A stretch of DNA of 64,000 bases from a virus, in the IMG/VR virus record IMGVR_UViG_3300020469_005214, positions 64,001 through 128,000 of that record. The stretch is one strand, 5' to 3'. Position numbers and translations under genes: made by a program. The notes beneath the pieces were generated by a model that saw only the letters and a program-made list of their open reading frames with translations, was not told where the DNA came from and ran no database searches. Positions within the stretch are counted from its first letter, which is position 1, and each line of letters opens with the position of its first letter. Of the stretch, positions 36,414 through 56,106 are shown one piece after another.

Positions 36414-37430
36414 ACTAAATAATAAGAGACACTTTAAATTAAATATCTAAAGATATATTAGTAATAAAAGGAAGAATTTAATTTTAAAACCTATTCTAAG
36501 TGACTTATAATCAGCTACAAATAATCCGTCAAATAAACCAATGGTATAACTAGCTTTTTAAGGTCTAAAGCCTTGTAGAGCTTTATATACAAATATAACC
36601 TTTTACCTCAGTAAAATAGCATAATAAGATAAAATAAATAAGTAGAATATATAAAGAAATAATATATATAAATATACATAGAATAAATAAAAAAATAATA
36701 GAACTAGATAGGTATTTTTTGCTTGTAGGGGATTATCCAGTTTATATTTTTTAAATAAATGGATTTTTTTTGCAAAAACCCTATTTTTTTTTATAAATAA
36801 TGCTTTTTTTCTATATTCTGCCTATAATTATAGTATTGACATGATCAAATAAATACTTACAATTTCAAATAAAAGTTTTTTCATCCCAAATAAATGAATA
36901 AAAAAAAATAATAAAAAAAAATATTTTTAAATAAATAATATAAAAAAAGTTTTTATTTTCCCAAATAAGCGTTTTATTAATAAGGCTCTATAGTTCAAGG
37001 GATAGAACAAGACACTTCTAATGTTTAGATCTGAGTTCGAATCTCGGTGGAGCTACCAAAAAAAATAAAAGTTTTTTTTCGCGAAATAAATGTATAAATT
37101 TTTATAAAAAAAAATAAAAGTTTTTTCGGCCTAAATAAAGGCGCATATAAAAAAATAAAAAAAAAGTTTTTTTTGCCCAAATAAATGTCCATATAAAAAA
37201 ATAAAATAAAAAAAAATATTCTTGACAATGTAGCAAAATAAAAAAAATAAAATAAAAAATTTTTTTCTTGACAAGATAAAAAAAATAAAATAAAATAAAG
37301 GTTTTATCTGCCCAAATAAAGGTGCAGGCGTATATAAGAAAAAGTATACTATATAAAGTATATAAAAAAGTATTATATATAGGCGGATAATTTAATTTGT
37401 TTTTTTTTATTTTTTTTTAAAAAAAGCTTG
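36414..37430. repeat. very AT-rich non-coding region with repeated AAAG-TTTT-N8/9-AAATAA units
   Basis: Copies near 36871, 36945, 37067, 37116, 37162 and 37297. Confidence 0.7.
36984..37058 (+). tRNA. tRNA-Arg(UCU)
   Basis: Cloverleaf; anticodon loop CTTCTAA; GTTCGAATC; encoded CCA. Confidence 0.93.
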
Positions 37431-48200: not shown

Positions 48201-50162
48201 CGCTTTAGTAGAGGGAAAAGAAATAGATCAATTTAATACTTCAACCTCAAAGGTTAGCTATAACCCTTACACTTCATCTTATTTTTTCTTGAGGGAAGAT
48301 CCAAGCAAAAAGATAGTTCAATCAAAAAGAGTTAAGATCATGACAACTGGAATTGAAGTTGAAGACTATGCGTTGAAAAACTAATTAGAATTTTTTTTTT
48401 AAAAAAAACTTGACTCAAGGGTATTTCCTGCTAGATTTGCATTATGACCACAATTACTGACTACCTAACATATCGCAACTACTGCCACAACAGAATGTTG
48501 TCACCTAACATTCCCGCAGAAAAATGGATTAGAATTTATAAGGATCAACCAACCTTTGAAAAACTTTTTCAAAAAGAATGCAAAAAACTCTTGACAAAGA
48601 AAAAGAATCTGTCATTGTCTTAGTTAGTTAACCACAGAAAACTAACCACAAAAAAACAAACTACTATTATGGAAATGCAAAACACACTCACACTCGGACA
48701 AGCTTACATCGTCGATGGTAAACCTATGGTCTTACACACGCTCGAAAATGGTCGCTTCGGCTTTACAGATGGTCGCTATGGCTTCGGTCGCACACTTGGT
48801 CGTCGTGCTAGCGATGTAGAGATTCTTAACAACCTCAAGATCGCTGAAGGAATCAACCCTCAAGATATCCTTGACAAACTCAAGTCAAGTGTTCAGTATA
48901 TGGCTGACTACTACCGCTCAAGAGACTAAAACCAAAAAAAATTAATTTAAAAAATGGAAACAGGATATAAAGTTGAGTTTATTACGCCAGAGTCTTTAGA
49001 AGAAAAAAAAGAATTAAAAAAAGCTCTTGCAATTGTTTTAAACGAAGCAGAGATATCTGCTCTTGGAGATAAAAACAAAAAAGTTTTGGACTCCGTAGAT
49101 TTGGTCAACAAAAAAGTTCTCAATCATCTTTAGTGGTTAAAAAATTGAATTAAAAAAAACTTCGGAAAGGTTTTTATACTAACTAAAAAAGTTAGTATTT
49201 TTTTTATTTTTTTCTTGACATCGTTAAAAAAAAGAAATATATTATCTTAAATAATAGGAATTTTTTCCGTTAGTCAGCTTGGCTGACTACTACATAGATA
49301 AAAAATTAATTAATATGAAAGAGATCAAAAGAATTATAAAATATATGTTTAGTAAACCCGTGCGAAAAAGATATGATGACAAATCTGTAATTGCAGAAAA
49401 TAAAACTAAAAAACTTCCAGATTCAGATTATGATGGAATGGGAAATTTTTCTAGGTTTGGTAAACCGCCAGGCTAAAAATTAAATTTATATTTTTTTTTA
49501 AAAAAAACTTGACTTCGGGAAATAATTATACATTATTGTTTTTATGTTAACCACATTTCACCAATGCATCGAAGAGGCTGAAAAGTTTCTCGCAAAAAAT
49601 AACATAGTTTGTTCTGAGTTTTCGGACAAATTATTTACTGGCGGTATTTCCTATGGTCAAACCATGTCTTTTAATTTTAAGATTGATCGTTTGAATGGAA
49701 GATTTACTAAACAATTTTTTCACTTCATTGTTAACCGAGACGAAAGCGGGCATTATGAAGCTATTAATTATGCTTTGTAAGTAACTGATTTATAGTGACT
49801 TAGAATTATTTTCATCTTTTTTTAAAAAAAAACTTGCAATCCGTATTTCTTATGTCATTGTATTAAACATAGCACCAATGCTATATCGCCAACCACGGCA
49901 AAAAAACTAACCACTATATTCTATGACCAACTTAGAAAAAATCGACGCTCTCAAGTCAGAAAAACGTCTTGAGCTTATTGGATCAATCGCTAAGAAGCTA
50001 AAGGCAAAGAAAGTTGAGCCTAGCAGTTTCACAAGTGCAATGCACGAGATAGCAGAAAAAGACGATACATCTGCTTTCATCGCCCAGTCAGTTGAAAGTT
50101 TAAAAGACTTCAAAATCTATGAGAAGCCAGATGAAAATATCCTATCTGAAATGTTTGGATAA
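42284..50162 (+). other. early region of ~30 small hypothetical ORFs (e.g. 42284-42628, 42716-43021, 43038-43256, 43262-43483, 43485-43688, 43657-43938, 43938-44144, 44461-44982, 44987-45190, 45192-45386, 45650-45901, 45946-46167, 46169-46327, 46480-46707, 46923-47087, 47316-47534, 47534-47776, 47787-47966, 48025-48384, 48669-48929, 49544-49780, 49923-50162)
   Basis: Co-oriented short ORFs, many directly behind TTGAC promoters. Confidence 0.65.
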
Positions 50163-50171
50163 CATCTAGCG

Positions 50172-50205
50172 AAATCCCCCTTTAGAAATTTAGGGGGATT
50201 TTTTT
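50172..50205 (+). terminator. intrinsic terminator
   Basis: AAATCCCCCT/AGGGGGATTT stem plus T run. Confidence 0.85.
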
Positions 50206-50660
50206 GTGTCTGTTATAAAATATTAATTTAAATAGTTGACAGATCAAAAAAAATAGACTTAAATAAATAATATAAATTAAAAAAAAAGAAAGAAATATAT
50301 TTCCTGAAATAATGTATCAGAAATCCCGATACAAAAAAAGTTTTTGTGATCCAAATAAGTGTATCCAAAATCCTGATACAGCTTGGCTGTATCAAAAAAT
50401 AGATATAAATAAAAAAAATAAAATAACTTTTAATAATCCGAAATAAAAGAGCCAGGAGAAAAAATAGGATAATATTATTTGGAGGTGATAAAAAAAATTA
50501 TTCTATATTTCCGGCTATTAGCGGTGCTTATGATATGTATTAGTTAGACTTATAGGCAGTAAAATTTTATTCTATATTATGCTCTGATTTTTTTTAAAAA
50601 AAACAATTTATTTTATCGTTAGGTGTTGACACGTTTTAAAAACTACTTTATTTTATAGGC

Positions 50661-50741
50661 CGTTCCTTCTCAGTTTTCCGCAAGTAATGAATCTTTCCCT
50701 CGACGGGGTTTGAAGACGCTTGGACTGAGATATCTAACCAC
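50661..50741 (+). promoter_or_regulatory. structured 5' leader, copy 1
   Basis: Conserved with 52193-52270. Confidence 0.75.
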
Positions 50742-50763
50742 AAAAAAAAGTAAGTTATATATT

Positions 50764-51576
50764 ATGAAAACATCAATCGAAACACTACTGTCTTGGAATC
50801 CAACTGCTACACCTCTCTCTGATGAGTTTGGTAAAGTTGGTTACCAATCTATCCGTCGCGATGATAACAACTCTTTAATTGGAGTAGTTGGTCAAAAGCG
50901 TTCCATTATCTCGAATCGCGAGTGCGTCCAGTCTATCGTAGACATGGCAAACTCATTAAACGTTCCATTTGGAAACCCTTATGTTAACGAGTTTAACGGA
51001 GGCGGAAAAATTCACGTTTCTTTCCCTCTACCAGAGGAGAGAATACAAGGTGATTCTTTTAGCCCAGAATTGCGTTTTACTTTCTCACACGACTCTAGCG
51101 AGCGTAGGAGAGTCTATTTCGCTTATTCACGTAACGCTTGCTCTAACATCTTTGCAAGTGCTGTTAAAAAAGGAGAGGGAATTTTTGCTAAGTTTTCTCT
51201 GAATCACTCGGAGAATTTCGCTAGTCGAATCTCTGGTTTTCCAGAAAGAATCAAAGAGTTAAGATTTGAGACAGACAGTGCTATTCAGCGTTTGCAGTCT
51301 ATTAAAGTAGTAGACCCTGCCCCGTATATCAAACGCCTTATAAAAGGCGAGGGAAAGCGTTCTGACACGATCAGAGAAGAGATTGAAACTCTTTTCCGTT
51401 CTGGTCGCGGTAACGTAGGAGAAACTGCTTATGACATCTTTAACGGTTTTACTGAGTATTTAAACCACTCAGCGACATACAAAGAAACCGAAAATAAGAC
51501 GTCTGCTGAAAATCGCATAAGTAGATTAGTTAACACCGATATCGTAGATGTCGCGAGAGAGTTAGCTAGAGTCTAA
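50764..51576 (+). CDS. DUF932-like phage/plasmid protein (270 aa)
   Basis: IRRDD....GVVG, GG.., SHD.S, R.ACSN, TAYDIFNGFTEY..H; ATG 50764 preferred over TTG 50710. Confidence 0.75.
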   Translation: MKTSIETLLSWNPTATPLSDEFGKVGYQSIRRDDNNSLIGVVGQKRSIISNRECVQSIVDMANSLNVPFGNPYVNEFNGGGKIHVSFPLPEERIQGDSFSPELRFTFSHDSSERRRVYFAYSRNACSNIFASAVKKGEGIFAKFSLNHSENFASRISGFPERIKELRFETDSAIQRLQSIKVVDPAPYIKRLIKGEGKRSDTIREEIETLFRSGRGNVGETAYDIFNGFTEYLNHSATYKETENKTSAENRISRLVNTDIVDVARELARV

Positions 51577-51583
51577 AAATTAC

Positions 51584-51620
51584 AAGGTCGTATTGGAAAT
51601 TCTGATACGACCTTTTTTTT
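51584..51620 (+). terminator. intrinsic terminator
   Basis: AAGGTCGTAT/ATACGACCTT stem plus T run. Confidence 0.85.
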
Positions 51621-52192
51621 GGCGTAATAATACGAAATAATTTTTTTTCAAATTGTATTTGAAATCTGGATACAAAAATATAAAGCAGTTTTTTTTATCC
51701 GAAATAAAAGAGAAAATTTTTATTAGAGAGCTTGGCTCTCTAAAAATAGAAATATATTTTCCGAAATAATGATTAATTTTTTATTACAGAGCTTGGCTCT
51801 GTAAAATAGTTTTTTCTCTCTCAAATAATGTATTTGAAATTCTGATATAAAAAAAAAGAATTATATTCCCCAAATAAAAGAAAAACTTTTTATTAGAGGG
51901 CTTGGCCCTCTAAGTATAACCAGCAAATAAAAAAAAATAATTCTAAATAAATAAGCGCGTAATAAAGAAAAGTTTCCATAAATAAATAAGCGTATATAAA
52001 AAAGAATAATTTTTCCTGGTGCCGAGCAAAACCGGGTATTAGCCGGTCTTATAGCAAGTATTAGATTATCTTATGGCATACCGCCAGGCGGGATTTTAAC
52101 GGCCTATTTAGTGGAAAAATTTTTTTTATTTTTTTTCATCTATTTGCGCCTATGGACTTGACTCACTTAAAAAACTATCCTATTTTATAGAT

Positions 52193-52270
52193 CGTTCCTT
52201 CTCAGTTTTCCGCAAGTGATGTATCTGCCTTTGATCGGGTAGGGGAAACTTGGACTGAGATACTAACCAT
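52193..52270 (+). promoter_or_regulatory. structured 5' leader, copy 2
   Basis: Conserved with 50661-50741. Confidence 0.75.
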
Positions 52271-52285
52271 AAAAGAAAGTAACTA

Positions 52286-53098
52286 ATGAAAACACTAAAT
52301 GCTCAACAAGCACTCGAACTCACAATCGTCGAATCTAAACTCAACTGCGAGTTTAAGCAGATCGACATTAATGGCGAGTATGCCGCGACTGTAGGTATCA
52401 AACGCTCGATACCGACATTCGAGAATCTGCTCGATCCATTCGTTCACTTGTCGAACGGCTTACAAGTCGACTTCGATCCTAAGATCGAATTGTTCCGCTC
52501 AAAGTTCGGAACTGAAGGCGCATCCTACGCGATGTCAATGCCACTCGGTAAAATCGAACTTGGCGGACGCGAGACCGAAACTCGCATCATTCGTAGAGGA
52601 TCATTCAATTCATCCGCATCCGATTCATTCGGCATTGAGATGATGGTAATGATTTGCTCAAACGGGATGATGGGATGGAAAGCCGAAAGCGAAAGCGGAC
52701 GCGCTAAGAGTCGCTTCTCACTCAACTGGGAATCGAACGCAGGAAACAAAGTCAATGCAATGCTAGACGGCTTTTCCTCAATGCAGGATCGATACATTCG
52801 GATCGCGGACGAACTTAGAGATATCAAACTCTCTAAGGAACAAGTCGACAATCGACTTGAGAAGCTATTCGGAAAAGACTCAAAGCAGTCGGATCGAGTT
52901 CGCGAACAAGTTCAAGATTTGTTCGTAAGTGGTAAGGGTAATCGTGGCGAGAATGCATGGGACTTGTTCAATGCCGTCACCGAATATCAGAATCATGAAC
53001 GAACTTACAAAGTGACTTCAGTTTCGTCCGATGAAAATCGTCGAAAGGGAATTCTCGACATTGACTTCGATTCACTTGCCGAAGTATTGGTAGCATAA
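52286..53098 (+). CDS. DUF932-like protein (270 aa), paralog of 50764..51576
   Basis: ICSNG and NAWDLFNAVTEY..H; C-terminal third aligns by eye with the paralog. Confidence 0.75.
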   Translation: MKTLNAQQALELTIVESKLNCEFKQIDINGEYAATVGIKRSIPTFENLLDPFVHLSNGLQVDFDPKIELFRSKFGTEGASYAMSMPLGKIELGGRETETRIIRRGSFNSSASDSFGIEMMVMICSNGMMGWKAESESGRAKSRFSLNWESNAGNKVNAMLDGFSSMQDRYIRIADELRDIKLSKEQVDNRLEKLFGKDSKQSDRVREQVQDLFVSGKGNRGENAWDLFNAVTEYQNHERTYKVTSVSSDENRRKGILDIDFDSLAEVLVA

Positions 53099-53142
53099 TG
53101 GAAATTATAATTCTTACTTTCCTTCTGCTAGTCTTGTTCTAA
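53098..53142 (+). CDS. hydrophobic micropeptide MEIIILTFLLLVLF
   Basis: TAATG stop/start overlap; lies inside the transcription unit before the terminator. Confidence 0.5.
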   Translation: MEIIILTFLLLVLF

Positions 53143-53147
53143 AAATC

Positions 53148-53180
53148 AAAGTCTCACTCGAAAGGGTGGGACTTTTTTTT
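53148..53180 (+). terminator. intrinsic terminator
   Basis: GTCTCACTC-GAAA-GGGTGGGAC plus T run. Confidence 0.85.
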
Positions 53181-53772
53181 ATGCCTTCCCCAAGAAATAG
53201 TTGTATTGAAAATTTGGATACATAAAAAAGGTTTTTATAATTCTAAATAGTGTATTGAAAATCTTGATACGACTTTAGTCGTATAGCAGTTTTTAAAATC
53301 GGAAATAATTGTATCCATAATCTTGATACGGCATTGCCGTATAAAAGTTTTTATCCCCGAAATAAAGGGACAATTTTTATTAGAAGGCTTGGCCTTCTAG
53401 ATGGTTTTAGTGTATCGAAAATCTTGATACAATCACCGGTCCCATTAGCAAAACTGATTCTTAGTATTAGAAAATTTAATAGCTTTTTTATTTGACAAGC
53501 CCGGATTTTTATGTTAGCCAAAAGTCTTGGTACTAGCGCAGGGGTGGTAGTTCTCCCGAACGTTTTATCGCACCCTTAACTATTACAATGATTATTTTTT
53601 TATACTTTGCAAGCTTTTTTTTATTTTTTTTTATTTTTTTTCTTAGACCGGGAACCTGGGACCTGGCATCCCTGCAAAGTTTTTTTATTTTTTTATTTGA
53701 CAACCTATTTTCTCTATCCATTGTCTTTTATGTCGAGGGGCAATTCAGCCCAAACAACTCGACCTACATAAC

Positions 53773-54126
53773 ATGATAAAAGCTATATTAATCGATCCAA
53801 CCTTGCCAAACTCTATGTATGGCGGACTTCCCAACTTCTCAACTGTTGAAGTTGGACATTATACTGACATTGTAAAGCACATCGGATGTTCGCTTTTTAC
53901 TTGCGTTCGTTTTCCCGATGGAAAGCACATTGCATATGTCGATGACGAAGGTCTCATTAACGGGACTGAGTTTGGCGTTCAATTTACTAAAGACATTTAC
54001 CCCGAACCTTTGGCAGGCAGAATTTTAATTCTTGGCGACGATGGAAAAGGCGGAGATGCTGATTGCGAGCTTGACATTGCAGAAGTGCAAGCTAAAGTTA
54101 AAGGCATCGTTCAATTTTCGATGTAG
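53773..54126 (+). CDS. DUF3846-like protein
   Basis: AILIDP, IGC, YVDDEGL, LAG..LI.G. Confidence 0.65.
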   Translation: MIKAILIDPTLPNSMYGGLPNFSTVEVGHYTDIVKHIGCSLFTCVRFPDGKHIAYVDDEGLINGTEFGVQFTKDIYPEPLAGRILILGDDGKGGDADCELDIAEVQAKVKGIVQFSM

Positions 54127-54138
54127 TGTTATCATGCT

Positions 54139-54172
54139 AGGGGCGTCCAAGAGATTGGGCGTCCCTTTTTTT
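54139..54172 (+). terminator. intrinsic terminator
   Basis: GC-rich stem plus T run. Confidence 0.8.
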
Positions 54173-54440
54173 ATCTCAATATAAAAGTTTTTCCTTCTCA
54201 AATATTTACGCCAGGTTTTTTTCACGGCTTGGCCGTGAAGATTTATTCCAGCAGGATGAACTGCACAGATGTTCACTACCTGGATCAGCAGGCTGAAGTG
54301 ATCAGATGTTCACTATTTATACAGGCGAAAAAAGATTAAAAAAGAATTTGACATAGCGAAAAAATTCTATTTTATTTTTAAGCATAGCACATCTGCTATT
54401 GATAACTCAAAGGTCGCGATTTCCTTAATCGCTTAACACT

Positions 54441-54806
54441 ATGTCTTATACATTCGCAAAGTTATTCAGCACCTTTCACAAAGGCGACTTTGAAGGTCAG
54501 GACGTTTCAATTGACATCTCATTAGAAGATTACGGGATCGCTTGGCAAGTGCTTGGTAGTAAAACCAAGTTTGTTTATGGCGTCGAGTGGAACGGTTCAG
54601 AAGGTAAATACGTTTCATTCGATCATTGTTTCATGGATACCGATATGAATGTCTTTTCGGAATTCGACTGGGTCGACTTTAACGACATCTATTCTTACAC
54701 TGGTCTAAGTGCGGACGAATGGAAAAAACTTCCGATGCCACAAAAGATTTGCGACCTTGTCCAATGTCACGGTCGAGAAAATATCTTCGGCATGGCATCA
54801 GTTTAA
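54441..54806 (+). CDS. hypothetical early protein
   Basis: Has its own promoter and terminator. Confidence 0.65.
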   Translation: MSYTFAKLFSTFHKGDFEGQDVSIDISLEDYGIAWQVLGSKTKFVYGVEWNGSEGKYVSFDHCFMDTDMNVFSEFDWVDFNDIYSYTGLSADEWKKLPMPQKICDLVQCHGRENIFGMASV

Positions 54807-54816
54807 ATTGCAAATA

Positions 54817-54852
54817 GCGTGATCGGACTTTACATCTGATCACGTTTTTTTT
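54817..54852 (+). terminator. intrinsic terminator
   Basis: CGTGATCGGA/TCTGATCACG plus T run. Confidence 0.8.
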
Positions 54853-55216
54853 ATTTAAATAATGTATCCAGGTTTCTGATACATAAAAAAGTTTTTTTTT
54901 ATTTAAATAATTGTATCCGGATTTCTTATACAGCTTGGCTGTATAAAAGTTTTTAATAGCTAAATAAAAGTTTTAAATAAGCGAAATAAATGTAGGGGCC
55001 TGGACCTGGAGCTTATGAAAAAAATGAAAAAACCGGCTATTAGAGATTCTTATGCTGGACGGGCTTTGTATTAGATTTGCTTATACGGGGTAAAGTAGTG
55101 AACAGGTGAACACTAAAAAAAAATTAATCTTTTTTATTCAATTTGCTTGCAATCGCCGATTTTATAGCCACACTTTAGATCATACCAATTAAGGTATATT
55201 AAACCACATCATATAA

Positions 55217-55654
55217 ATGAAAAAAATCGAAGCACTACAAAACCTACGCAAGGGCACATTTGCCGTTGCTCGCATTGTATCGGATAAGAAACCTCTTAAA
55301 GCATACAGTCAGCACAAAATCACTAAGGTTGTCTTGGCAACTGTTCGCACAGGAGTTGAGTTTAAAAACCTTGCAGTCAATGCAGACCGCGAGACTGGTT
55401 CTTTACCTTGGGGGCAATGGGAGGTTTACCCTTATGCAATCGCCCACAAGGGTAATCGCTACATCCGTCTTTACCTTGGCAACTCAATGAAAGTTTTCTA
55501 TCTAGTAGATGGCGTAAAGGTTGCAAGCCAAGTTGCAAAGGCAATGCTTCCAAAAAGCAAAGCAGGTGAAAAGCCAAGTTGCATAACAGTAAAAGAAAAT
55601 GGCTTGGTAAGCATAAAGCAAAACGGAAAGGAGTTGCTAAATGGAATTAGTTAA
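55217..55654 (+). CDS. basic hypothetical early protein
   Basis: LPWG.W..YPY.I.HKG..Y.RLY pattern. Confidence 0.65.
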   Translation: MKKIEALQNLRKGTFAVARIVSDKKPLKAYSQHKITKVVLATVRTGVEFKNLAVNADRETGSLPWGQWEVYPYAIAHKGNRYIRLYLGNSMKVFYLVDGVKVASQVAKAMLPKSKAGEKPSCITVKENGLVSIKQNGKELLNGIS

Positions 55655-55812
55655 AGGAGTAATTGGAGGAGCGTTAATCGCGCTCCTCCTTTTCCTAGCT
55701 TTTGAATTTGCGGAGCATAAAGAAGAAAATCGGATCGAGCTTCAAAAACAAAGTTGGGTTGAACAAGGTTTCCCAATCGGTGAATAGATTGTAGTTGCAA
55801 ACCAAATACACA

Positions 55813-55847: not shown

Positions 55848-56106
55848 CAGAAAATACACTGCGTTGCGACATGATAAATAACTCAGGGGTATCCCACGTA
55901 CTAGCTCGAAAATTTCATTTTTCAATTTCTACCTTATTTATTTCTTATTATCTTATTTACCCCCCCCCTTTATTTAAAAACTTAGGAACTTATATAAATC
56001 AGCTTATATTAGCGGCGCAAAAAAATCAGGGGACTATTTTGAATTTAAGGATTCTACCCATTTGAAATAATTGAATATTTGTTGATTTTTCTTTATAATA
56101 TTATTG

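What the first reader, a model, noticed from the sequence alone, without database searches (positions are those of the whole stretch)
49271..54946. Eight perfect hairpins with different stems but an invariant GC-TTG-GC cap
Seen: TAGTCAGC (49271), TGATACAGC (50374), TTAGAGAGC (51723), TTACAGAGC (51784), TTAGAGGGC (51893), TAGAAGGC (53381), TTCACGGC (54221) and TTATACAGC (54926). Each is followed by TTG and its exact reverse complement, all in the same orientation. Variants lie at 53267 and 53326. Stem sequence changes while pairing is kept, which points to selection on structure. Most lie between a terminator and the next promoter, so they are probably not transcribed. Inference: DNA hairpins or cruciforms recognised by a protein (compare N4 virion-RNAP triloop promoters, HUH or primase hairpin signals), perhaps for DNA entry, nicking or replication.
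Basis: partly seen in the sequence, partly recalled or inferred. Interest (0 to 1): 0.8.

Follow-up and report, generated by a model that had tools for sequence, protein, structure and literature searches.

The report
Capped hairpins in phage spacer modules
Eight small perfect hairpins with an invariant GC-TTG-GC tip are real and under selection for pairing; each is the second half of a repeated two-part signal (AAATAA, then a hairpin 14-15 bases later) filling the spacers between single-gene cassettes of an anti-restriction island in an uncultured marine phage, and their function is still unproven.

Summary
The 141.7-kb phage record has eight perfect 8-9 bp hairpins capped GC-TTG-GC. All are on the + strand within 5.7 kb (about 0.07 expected by chance).

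In five related contigs the cap never changes, while stems change with pairing kept (99.3% of cells paired; 6 of 9 pairs show double changes).

New here: each hairpin belongs to a bipartite unit, T-run, C-rich, AAATAA, then 23±1 nt to the loop. Units occur only on the + strand. A sister clade keeps the same spacing but has a 3-4 bp G(CTTG)C mini-hairpin. A more distant clade has only AAATAA arrays.

Seven of eight hairpins follow strong terminators; one lies in a 5' leader. A tRNA gene occupies the hairpin slot in another unit.

Gene cassettes (DUF932, DUF3846; ArdC in a relative) are shuffled between relatives at these spacers.

Best reading (about 0.4): strand-specific RNA stem-loops in PeSL-like spacer modules, with the cap recognised by a factor. 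A DNA-hairpin reading (about 0.25) is not excluded. An N4-type promoter is unlikely, because no virion RNA polymerase was found and the loop rule fails.

This scan has noted similar invariant-loop hairpins in other phages, mostly filed as PeSL-like.

The parts
49271..49289 (+). Capped hairpin 1, TAGTCAGC-TTG-GCTGACTA. It lies at about +21..+39 of the promoter at 49215-49243, in the 5' leader of a 53-aa ORF (49315-49476).
   Evidence: The L006 orthologue keeps a hairpin, but its loop is GGC.
50374..50394 (+). Capped hairpin 2, TGATACAGC-TTG-GCTGTATCA. Its 5' arm is the 3' half of the box at 50360-50380.
51723..51743 (+). Capped hairpin 3, TTAGAGAGC-TTG-GCTCTCTAA.
51784..51804 (+). Capped hairpin 4, TTACAGAGC-TTG-GCTCTGTAA. 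This is the commonest stem in relatives.
51893..51913 (+). Capped hairpin 5, TTAGAGGGC-TTG-GCCCTCTAA.
53381..53399 (+). Capped hairpin 6, TAGAAGGC-TTG-GCCTTCTA. The orthologous site carries TTATAGAGC in L028/L029/L013 and TGATACGGC in L027.
54221..54239 (+). Capped hairpin 7, TTCACGGC-TTG-GCCGTGAA. It is the only unit in the spacer after the DUF3846 gene terminator.
54926..54946 (+). Capped hairpin 8, TTATACAGC-TTG-GCTGTATAA.
53267..53342 (+). Two class-2 hairpins in the same unit slot but with other loops: 53267-53284 (loop TTTA) and 53326-53342 (loop ATT).
   Evidence: The loop lies 23-24 nt after the unit's AAATA(A/G).
49249..54989 (+). Span of the unit cores (T-run, 2-5 C-rich nt, AAATAA) in the island. 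Each capped hairpin has one upstream: 49249, 50353, 51702, 51764, 51872, 53360, 54200, 54905. The AAATAA 3' end is 23 +/- 1 nt from the loop, so the stem starts 14-16 nt after it.
   Evidence: Position-weight-matrix (PWM) hits of at least 14 bits: 26 on the + strand, 0 on the - strand of the whole genome.
50313..54932 (+). Ten (Y)GTATY-N9-GATAC(R) boxes with a conserved asymmetric spacer, starting at 50313, 50360, 51654, 51829, 53202, 53251, 53310, 53411, 54863 and 54912. An eleventh copy is embedded in the terminator at 51584-51614.
50178..54846 (+). Span holding the canonical intrinsic terminators that precede the arrays: 50178-50197, 51584-51614, 53148-53175, 54139-54166 and 54816-54846.
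36867..37320 (+). Second cluster of the same unit cores, without capped hairpins. tRNA-Arg (36984-37058) starts 15 nt after AAATAA (36963-36968) and is followed by the usual A-run-G-T-run. A sigma70-type promoter lies at 36836.

Best explanation
The hairpins are the structured half of a lineage-specific bipartite element: AAATAA, then 14-15 nt, then a perfect stem-loop. The element is repeated in tandem in the spacers separating single-gene early cassettes (terminator, spacer array, promoter, structured leader, gene) of an anti-restriction-type island.

I think they most likely act in the + sense RNA, on transcripts that start in the spacer or read through into it. In this reading AAAUAA is a single-stranded start or cleavage site. 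The hairpin just downstream is a stable stem-loop whose C(UUG)G cap is recognised by a factor. Together they punctuate or insulate transcripts, by defining or protecting RNA ends or by loading a factor on the transcribing polymerase, much as a linear box plus hairpin does in nut sites.

As a by-product the repeated units supply homology for cassette gain, loss and reordering, like PeSL cassettes of T4-type phages.

Shown: anatomy, spacing, strand bias, covariation, cap invariance and cassette shuffling. Inferred: that the folded molecule is RNA, that a factor reads the cap, and what the outcome is.
For: 1. Pairing is selected and the cap is fixed. There are 23 copies (16 distinct) in the window and four relatives. 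99.3% of cells are paired against 78% in shuffles, 6 of 9 pairs show double changes, and GCTTGGC is invariant. Three different perfect stems occupy one orthologous site.
2. The spacing is fixed. The AAATAA 3' end lies 22-24 nt from the loop in 20 of 23 units as scored by the script; by hand re-registration of the other three, two read 23-24 and one 21. Class-2 hairpins with other loops sit at the same offset.
3. A sister clade keeps the scaffold and the 24-nt spacing but has only a 3-4 bp stem, C[A/T]G-CTTG-C[T/A]G (AU 18, UA 7, none broken). That is too short to extrude from duplex DNA. G(CUUG)C is a standard RNA tetraloop (own knowledge).
4. Strand bias is strict: unit-core matches are 26 on the + strand and 0 on the - strand, co-oriented with all local genes.
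5. There is transcribed context. Hairpin 1 lies at +21..+39 of a TTGACA-17-TATATT promoter conserved in L006. tRNA-Arg sits in the hairpin slot of a unit, 15 nt after AAATAA. The related box forms the top of a genuine terminator at 51584-51614.
6. The only non-Watson-Crick cells in the stems are three G.T/T.G pairs and one T.C, with no A.C.
7. The cap is not explained by nearest-neighbour energies: all 64 triloops score the same. This points to recognition rather than stability.
8. Cassettes are shuffled at the spacers.
Against: - Seven of eight hairpins lie downstream of strong intrinsic terminators and upstream of the next promoter, so transcription there is expected to be low unless a spacer promoter or read-through exists.
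- No consistent promoter could be defined for the units. A -10-like hexamer precedes AAATAA in only about 9 of 24 window units by my hand count over the unit list. The cap works as a -35 in only 6 of 22.
- Stems are essentially pure Watson-Crick. The - strand of an array folds at least as well as the + strand (-70.6 vs -64.9 kcal/mol), so there is no RNA-specific G.U signature.
- A fixed linear spacing that ignores what lies between also fits reading on duplex DNA.
- The L006 orthologue of the one leader-borne hairpin has lost the TTG cap.
- No matching Rfam family was found, and no candidate binding protein was identified.
Confidence: 0.4

Rival explanations
1. DNA-level signal. The palindromes extrude as hairpins or cruciforms, or fold in transiently single-stranded DNA. 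A protein reads them together with AAATAA on the DNA. Possible roles are at genome entry (the island looks like a plasmid leading region), nicking, priming, or N4-style hairpin-dependent transcription.
For: - Stems are perfect Watson-Crick palindromes with no internal wobble.
- Both strands fold equally well.
- 7 of 8 lie in presumably poorly transcribed spacers after terminators.
- The architecture equals that of N4 early promoters: a GC-rich heptamer flanked by inverted repeats whose non-conserved bases only need to pair, and short hairpins that do extrude in vivo (PMC4496689).
- The linear spacing to AAATAA is fixed regardless of the intervening sequence.
- AAATAA repeats sit at about 10-nt phasing in a distant clade.
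- The island carries ArdC, DUF932 and DUF3846; from my own knowledge these are typical of first-entering plasmid DNA, the leading region (on leading regions and anti-defence genes in general: PMC11541004).
Against: - No T7/N4-like RNAP, HUH Rep, gpA, relaxase, Y1 transposase or tyrosine recombinase was found in 141.7 kb. The record is estimated 77% complete.
- The 2392-aa orphan protein has a vWA MIDAS motif (my own reading of a DRSGSM motif in the consensus) and no RNAP similarity.
- The template-strand loop would be CAA, not the G-R-A with a sheared G:A that N4 needs.
- Seven of eight have no ORF starting nearby, and the next gene has its own sigma70-type promoter.
- The sister clade's 3-4 bp stem cannot extrude.
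Confidence: 0.25
2. The units are mainly recombination substrates or selfish repeats, that is, PeSL-like homology blocks or a miniature palindromic element family. Palindromy would be kept by intrastrand templated correction or gene conversion, with no separate regulatory role for the cap.
For: - Unit number and type differ between close relatives, and identical stems recur at different sites.
- An ~800-nt three-gene cassette in L028 is flanked by two identical TTACAGAGC-TTG units, where L029 has none of it.
- The DUF3846 and 121-aa cassettes are swapped, and the 53-aa gene is absent in L006, with the break right after hairpin 1.
- PeSLs do this in T4-type phages (PMC2839356, PMC4122927).
Against: - The 7-nt cap is invariant across 16 distinct copies while 6 of 9 stem pairs vary.
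- The 23 +/- 1 nt spacing to AAATAA is conserved even in a sister clade whose intervening sequence is unrelated.
- The recombination joints seen are not at the hairpins themselves. The L028/L029 crossover lies in a 56-nt repeat about 100 nt away.
- Neutral repeats would decay.
Confidence: 0.15
3. The hairpins are duplex-DNA operator palindromes bound by a dimeric regulator, with no folding of a single strand. The GTATY-N9-GATAC boxes would be the primary sites.
For: - Several capped hairpins are built from box half-sites (GATACA-GCTTGGC-TGTATC).
- The boxes show no wobble-versus-A.C asymmetry at the inner position, about 12 T.G against 13 C.A by my hand tally of the distinct + strand box variants listed. 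This is what a degenerate duplex half-site would give.
- The sites lie upstream of early promoters.
Against: - A homodimer needs conserved half-sites, not covarying ones. Stems such as TTAGAGGGC, TTCACGGC and TAGTCAGC share no half-site, yet all pair perfectly.
- In the sister clade CAGC..GCTG and CTGC..GCAG occur but never mixed forms.
- All sites share one orientation and an asymmetric TTG centre.
Confidence: 0.08

Closest known systems
PeSL (promoter-early stem-loop) cassettes of T4-type phages (Arbiol 2010, PMC2839356; Comeau 2014, PMC4122927)
   Same: Small conserved regulatory repeats between single non-essential early ORFs in a hyperplastic region. They combine stem-loops with sigma70-like early promoters. 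They are associated with insertion, deletion and reordering of cassettes between close relatives.
   Different: PeSL stem-loops are the terminators themselves and directly abut the promoter. Here canonical terminators and promoters are also present, but the capped hairpins are extra elements between them. They have no U-tract, occur in tandem arrays of up to several units, carry an invariant cap and sit at a fixed distance from an AAATAA motif.
Early promoters of coliphage N4 read by the virion RNA polymerase (PMC4496689)
   Same: Short hairpins with a 3-nt loop and a GC-rich heptamer at the tip. The flanking inverted repeats need only pair. All share one orientation and sit in the early region.
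   Different: N4 has three promoters, each about 11 nt upstream of a start site, with a G-R-A loop on the template strand and a 3500-aa vRNAP. Here there are eight or more copies, mostly far from any ORF. The loop is TTG/CAA, stems are 8-9 bp, and no vRNAP gene was found.
nut sites of lambdoid phages (boxA plus boxB) and other promoter-proximal antitermination RNAs (own knowledge)
   Same: A bipartite RNA signal: a short linear box followed at a set distance by a small hairpin whose loop is conserved while the stem varies. It is co-oriented with transcription in the early region.
   Different: Lambdoid phages have two nut sites, each just downstream of an early promoter. Here there are arrays, mostly after terminators. 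AAATAA is unlike boxA, and no N-like protein was identified.
Intergenic hairpins with special loops in T4 (C(UUCG)G hairpins, Tuerk et al. 1988; own knowledge) and bacterial modular repeats (REP/BIME, BOX elements; own knowledge)
   Same: Families of intergenic stem-loops with a preferred loop and variable stems, in modular, copy-number-variable arrays.
   Different: It is tied to a fixed-distance partner motif.

Membership tests
N4-type virion-RNAP hairpin promoter | Short hairpin with a 3-nt loop, a GC-rich heptamer at the tip, and variable paired flanks | tested here: met
   Stems of 8-9 bp (N4: 5-7), loop of 3 nt, invariant GCTTGGC, covarying stems (PMC4496689).
N4-type virion-RNAP hairpin promoter | Template-strand loop G-R-A (purine at -11, -10G, sheared G:A), -8G and +1C | tested here: not met
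   The template (-) strand loop is CAA and the + strand loop is TTG. There is no G:A pair.
N4-type virion-RNAP hairpin promoter | A giant virion RNA polymerase is encoded by the phage | tested here: not met
   PF00940 is absent, though that search had no positive control hit. The large ORFs have no PHROG, Pfam or PDB RNAP match. The 2392-aa orphan carries a vWA-type DRSGSM motif. Caveat: the record is estimated 77% complete.
N4-type virion-RNAP hairpin promoter | The start site and an early gene lie just downstream of each hairpin | tested here: not met
   Only 49271 is within 26 nt of an ORF. The others are 200-560 nt from the next ORF, which has its own TTGACA-type promoter.
N4-type virion-RNAP hairpin promoter | Supercoil- and SSB-dependent extrusion | not testable with these tools
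   This needs probing of supercoiled DNA.
PeSL cassettes | Repeats between small early ORFs of a hyperplastic region | tested here: met
   Single-gene cassettes with their own promoter and terminator; the units occur only in the early region.
PeSL cassettes | The stem-loop is an effective terminator fused to a sigma70-like promoter | tested here: not met
   The capped hairpins are followed by A-runs, not U-tracts. Separate canonical terminators exist. The cap serves as a -35 in only 6 of 22.
PeSL cassettes | Indels and reshuffling between close relatives map to the repeats | tested here: met
lambda-type nut site | A linear box plus a hairpin at set spacing in the early transcript | tested here: inconclusive
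   The spacing is fixed and one copy is in a leader. Transcription of the other seven is not shown.
lambda-type nut site | boxA consensus and an N-type arginine-rich protein | not tested
   AAATAA is unlike CGCUCUUUA (own knowledge). The small early proteins gave no family hits.
Integron attC / HUH hairpin sites (IS200/IS605, REP-RAYT, rolling-circle origins, oriT) | A cognate tyrosine recombinase or HUH enzyme is encoded | tested here: not met
   PF00589, PF01797, PF05840, PF01446 and PF03432 all gave no match in the record. Rep_1 had no positive control.
Type III antitoxin-like (ToxI / pseudo-ToxI) RNA repeats | Near-identical tandem repeats of about 34-50 nt processed by a ToxN-type toxin | tested here: not met
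   The units are 45-62 nt and heterogeneous in sequence. There is no Rfam hit. Concept from PMC3475682 and PMC5086642.

The most novel reading that the evidence does not exclude
The island is the first-entering 'leading' DNA of the phage. On this reading the capped palindromes are extruded or single-stranded DNA hairpins read, together with AAATAA, by an enzyme unrelated to the N4 polymerase, for example an unrecognised injected or early polymerase, primase, nickase or ejection checkpoint. That would be a second, independent use of short regulatory DNA hairpins in a tailed phage, here coupled to anti-restriction genes.
Probability: 0.12. Interest if true: 0.85.

Novelty: new variant of a known kind. 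Interest (0 to 1): 0.5.

Why it matters
If the bipartite AAATAA-N23-hairpin is a working signal, it defines a new cis-element class. This class organises expression and exchange of anti-restriction genes (ArdC, DUF932, DUF3846) in a group of abundant uncultured marine phages.

The natural series makes the RNA-versus-DNA question directly testable with short oligonucleotides and reporters. That series runs from TTG-capped 9-bp stems, to a CTTG-capped 3-bp stem in a sister clade, to no hairpin in a distant clade.

It would also give a sequence handle for finding such islands in metagenomes. If it is only a PeSL-like recombination scaffold, it still extends that concept beyond T4-type phages, with a more elaborate grammar.

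Tried and rejected
- **Cap as a -35 element.** GCTTGGC differs by one base from the phage's extended early -35, GCTTGAC. Only 6 of 22 distinct hairpins have an acceptable -10 at 16-18 bp, so this was rejected as a general rule.
- **Late-promoter class.** TTTCWC-N16-TGTAAT is real, but the units do not fit its spacing.
- **T4 MotA-box-like reading of GCTT.** There is no consistent -10 at the right distance.
- **Rho-utilisation (rut) arrays.** The window arrays are A-rich with only about 10% C and no C>G excess.
- **Intrinsic terminators on either strand.** No U-tract abuts the stems.
- **Sigma54 or DnaA-box readings.** These rest on partial matches only.
- **Loop-loop kissing.** The complement GCCAAGC occurs only three times in the genome, and none of the three was examined further.
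- **GCTTGGC in more distant relatives.** The copies in L035, L041 and L042 lie inside coding sequence and are chance. So are the three extra hits of the exact-pattern scan.
- **RNA-strand asymmetry.** + and - strand folds are equally good, and box inner-pair wobble versus A.C is about 12:13 (my hand tally). Neither is informative.
- **Rfam.** No family was found at gathering or relaxed thresholds.
- **Relatives of the tRNA-Arg array.** The exact-pattern hit is an unrelated phage, and the protein-anchored relatives are too distant.
- **Protein Atlas look-ups of the 2392-aa protein.** These could not be run.
- **phiX/pC194 nick motif.** CTTGATA in the boxes resembles it, but the motif is not invariant and no Rep gene exists.

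Full report
**Setting.** The window is bases 64001-128000 of a single 141,669-bp virus record (34.5% GC). CheckV rates it 77% complete. It is a tailed phage with a tape-measure protein, a DnaE-type polymerase, ribonucleotide reductase, a DnaB-like helicase, a UvsX-like recombinase, terminase and a sigma-like protein. No close relative exists among deposited phages.

Window 28000-49200 is packed with small + strand genes. Most have a near-consensus TTGACA-N16/17 promoter, often directly before the start codon. From 49200 to 55700 the layout changes. Single genes have long leaders, strong intrinsic terminators and 250-700 bp spacers. The genes include two DUF932 paralogues, a DUF3846 protein and several orphans. 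A sister phage carries a full ArdC anti-restriction gene in the same place.

- All eight hairpins are perfect, with 8-9 bp stems, a TTG loop and GC/GC closure.
- The whole record holds 20 GCTTGGC words. Only these eight are hairpins, all on the + strand within 5.7 kb.
- Simulated genomes give 0.07 GC-closed perfect hairpins of this size, against 8 observed.

**Relatives.** Two IMG/VR contigs (L006/L009, L013) and three metagenome contigs (L027-L029) are collinear at about 85% DNA identity. They carry 3-6 capped hairpins each, always on the + strand.
- Across 23 copies (16 distinct) the seven-base cap never changes.
- Six of nine stem pairs show changes on both sides. 99.3% of cells pair, against 78% after shuffling and 34-49% when the partner is slid.
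- At one orthologous site three relatives carry three different perfect stems.
- The nearest-neighbour model gives the TTG loop no advantage over any other triloop. The cap therefore looks recognised rather than merely stable.

**What the hairpins belong to.** Each sits in a repeat unit of about 45-62 nt: A-run, G, T-run, 2-5 C-rich bases, AAATAA, about 15 nt, hairpin.
- The AAATAA 3' end is 22-24 nt from the loop in 20 of 23 units as scored by the script; by hand re-registration of the other three, two read 23-24 and one 21.
- The 15-nt interval may be AT-rich filler. Or it may be the 5' half and spacer of a (Y)GTATY-N9-GATAC(R) box, whose 3' half then doubles as the hairpin's 5' arm.
- Hairpins with other loops (ATT, TTTA, CAG, CAGGC) occupy the same slot.
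- A position matrix of the unit core finds 26 matches on the + strand and none on the - strand of the genome. They lie only at window 28410, 36867-37314, 39011/39081 and 49249-54984.

**Depth of conservation.**
- A sister clade (DUF932 87% identical; L030-L034, L010, L045) has dozens of units with the same frame but a different middle: AAATAA(C)TAACG-N7-AGATTAGG. The loop is again 24 nt after AAATAA. It is a mini-hairpin C[A/T]G-CTTG/CTCG-C[T/A]G, with A-U and U-A forms and no mixed forms.
- A clade at 57% identity has only dense (C)CAAATAA arrays after its terminators and no hairpins. Its GCTTGGC words are in coding sequence.
- So AAATAA arrays are old, the fixed-distance hairpin is younger, and the GC-TTG-GC cap is specific to the window's own clade.

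**RNA or DNA? Evidence for RNA.**
- Co-orientation with transcription is strict.
- Hairpin 1 lies at +21..+39 of an 11/12-match promoter, and AAATAA covers the expected start point. This is conserved in L006, although there the loop is GGC.
- In the 36.8-37.3 kb cluster, tRNA-Arg begins 15 nt after an AAATAA and is followed by the usual A-run-G-T-run. A transcribed structured RNA therefore sits in the hairpin slot.
- A box forms the top of the genuine terminator at 51584-51614.
- The sister clade's 3-4 bp stem could not extrude from duplex DNA, but it matches the G(CUUG)C tetraloop class (own knowledge).
- The few imperfect cells are G.T, never A.C.

**RNA or DNA? Evidence for DNA.**
- Seven of eight hairpins follow strong terminators.
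- Pairing is pure Watson-Crick, and both strands fold equally well.
- The linear spacing ignores the intervening sequence.
- AAATAA repeats are phased at about 10 nt in the distant clade.
- The architecture is that of N4 early promoters, a GC-rich heptamer with variable paired flanks (PMC4496689).
- The island resembles a plasmid leading region.

**Enzymes for DNA-level models were not found.**
- There is no T7/N4-like polymerase, phiX gpA, Rep_1, relaxase, Y1 transposase or tyrosine recombinase. Two of those searches lacked a positive control, and about a quarter of the genome may be missing.
- The largest orphan (2392 aa) is conserved only in this phage group. It has no Pfam, PHROG or PDB match and carries a vWA-type DRSGSM motif. 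That points to a virion or adhesin protein rather than a polymerase.
- The N4 loop rule (G-R-A on the template) is not met.

**Cassette dynamics.**
- Between the window and L006/L013, the DUF3846 and 121-aa cassettes have swapped order.
- The 53-aa gene behind hairpin 1 is missing in L006, and the similarity breaks right after the hairpin.
- L028 carries an ~800-nt three-gene cassette, flanked by two identical TTACAGAGC-TTG units, that L029 lacks.
- Unit numbers differ everywhere.
- This is the behaviour described for PeSL cassettes (PMC2839356, PMC4122927). The crossover seen lies in a neighbouring repeat, not in the hairpin.

**Verdict.** The finding is real and better defined than first described: a bipartite, strand-specific AAATAA-N23-hairpin module in PeSL-like spacers of an anti-restriction island.
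- An RNA-level role is most likely, at about 0.4. In that reading the module acts as a start or cleavage site plus a cap-recognised stem-loop that punctuates or insulates transcripts.
- A DNA-hairpin role stands at about 0.25.
- A mainly recombinational role stands at about 0.15.
- A duplex operator is unlikely, and a true N4-type promoter is also unlikely.

None of these is proven, and the tests listed would separate them. The scan has flagged comparable invariant-loop, variable-stem hairpins in other phage genomes, mostly interpreted as PeSL-like. That tempers the novelty.

Noticed in passing
window 36963-37058: tRNA-Arg sits inside a spacer unit exactly where the hairpins sit in other units. 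It starts 15 nt after AAATAA and is followed by A-run-G-T-run. A sigma70-type promoter lies 148 nt upstream.
   Followed up: partly
window 50655-50763 and 52187-52285; L010:700-823; L033:4400-4500: A conserved structured leader of about 100 nt lies in front of both DUF932 paralogues. By eye, the ArdC gene of the sister phage in L010 has a leader of similar architecture but different sequence (not aligned). In each, a CTCAGT...ACTGAG-type closing helix ends in an AACCAC-type motif.
   Followed up: no
window 53495-53590; L013:2190-2270; L033:5735-5800: A conserved GC-richer block (cttggtactagcgcagggg...ctcccgaacg...atcgcacc) sits behind a TTGACA-like promoter and is shared by both clades. It is a candidate small RNA or leader.
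   Followed up: no
window 54270-54320 and 55095-55115; L042:4770-4800; L035:3520-3545: TGTTCAC / GTGAACA words occur in direct or inverted pairs (for example GAACA-N2-TGTTC) just upstream of several early promoters in all clades. They are a candidate operator for a regulator and resemble GAAC-N4-GTTC SOS boxes.
   Followed up: no
window 55925-55975: At the right edge of the island, the AAATAA polarity flips. TTATTT is repeated three to four times on the + strand next to a run of nine C. This may mark a module boundary.
   Followed up: no
window 28900-49000: Many early genes start 7-12 nt after the -10 hexamer with no Shine-Dalgarno sequence. Early mRNAs therefore seem largely leaderless, unlike the long-leader genes of the 49-55 kb island.
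   Followed up: no
L010:824-1651: A sister phage encodes a complete ArdC (ArdcN plus a zincin-like peptidase domain) in the same island, behind the same kind of spacer array.
   Followed up: yes
genome 28450-35628 (L002:8450-15628, - strand): A 2392-aa orphan protein is conserved only in this phage group (58-80% identity in seven metagenome proteins). It has a vWA-type DRSGSM motif, a long acidic run and no family match.
   Followed up: partly
L041:3330-3375 and L035:1256-1375: Distant relatives carry AAATAA in tandem at about 10-nt period (AAATAAGACT x4 about 60 nt upstream of the mini-tmRNA gene; CCAAATAA arrays after terminators).
   Followed up: partly
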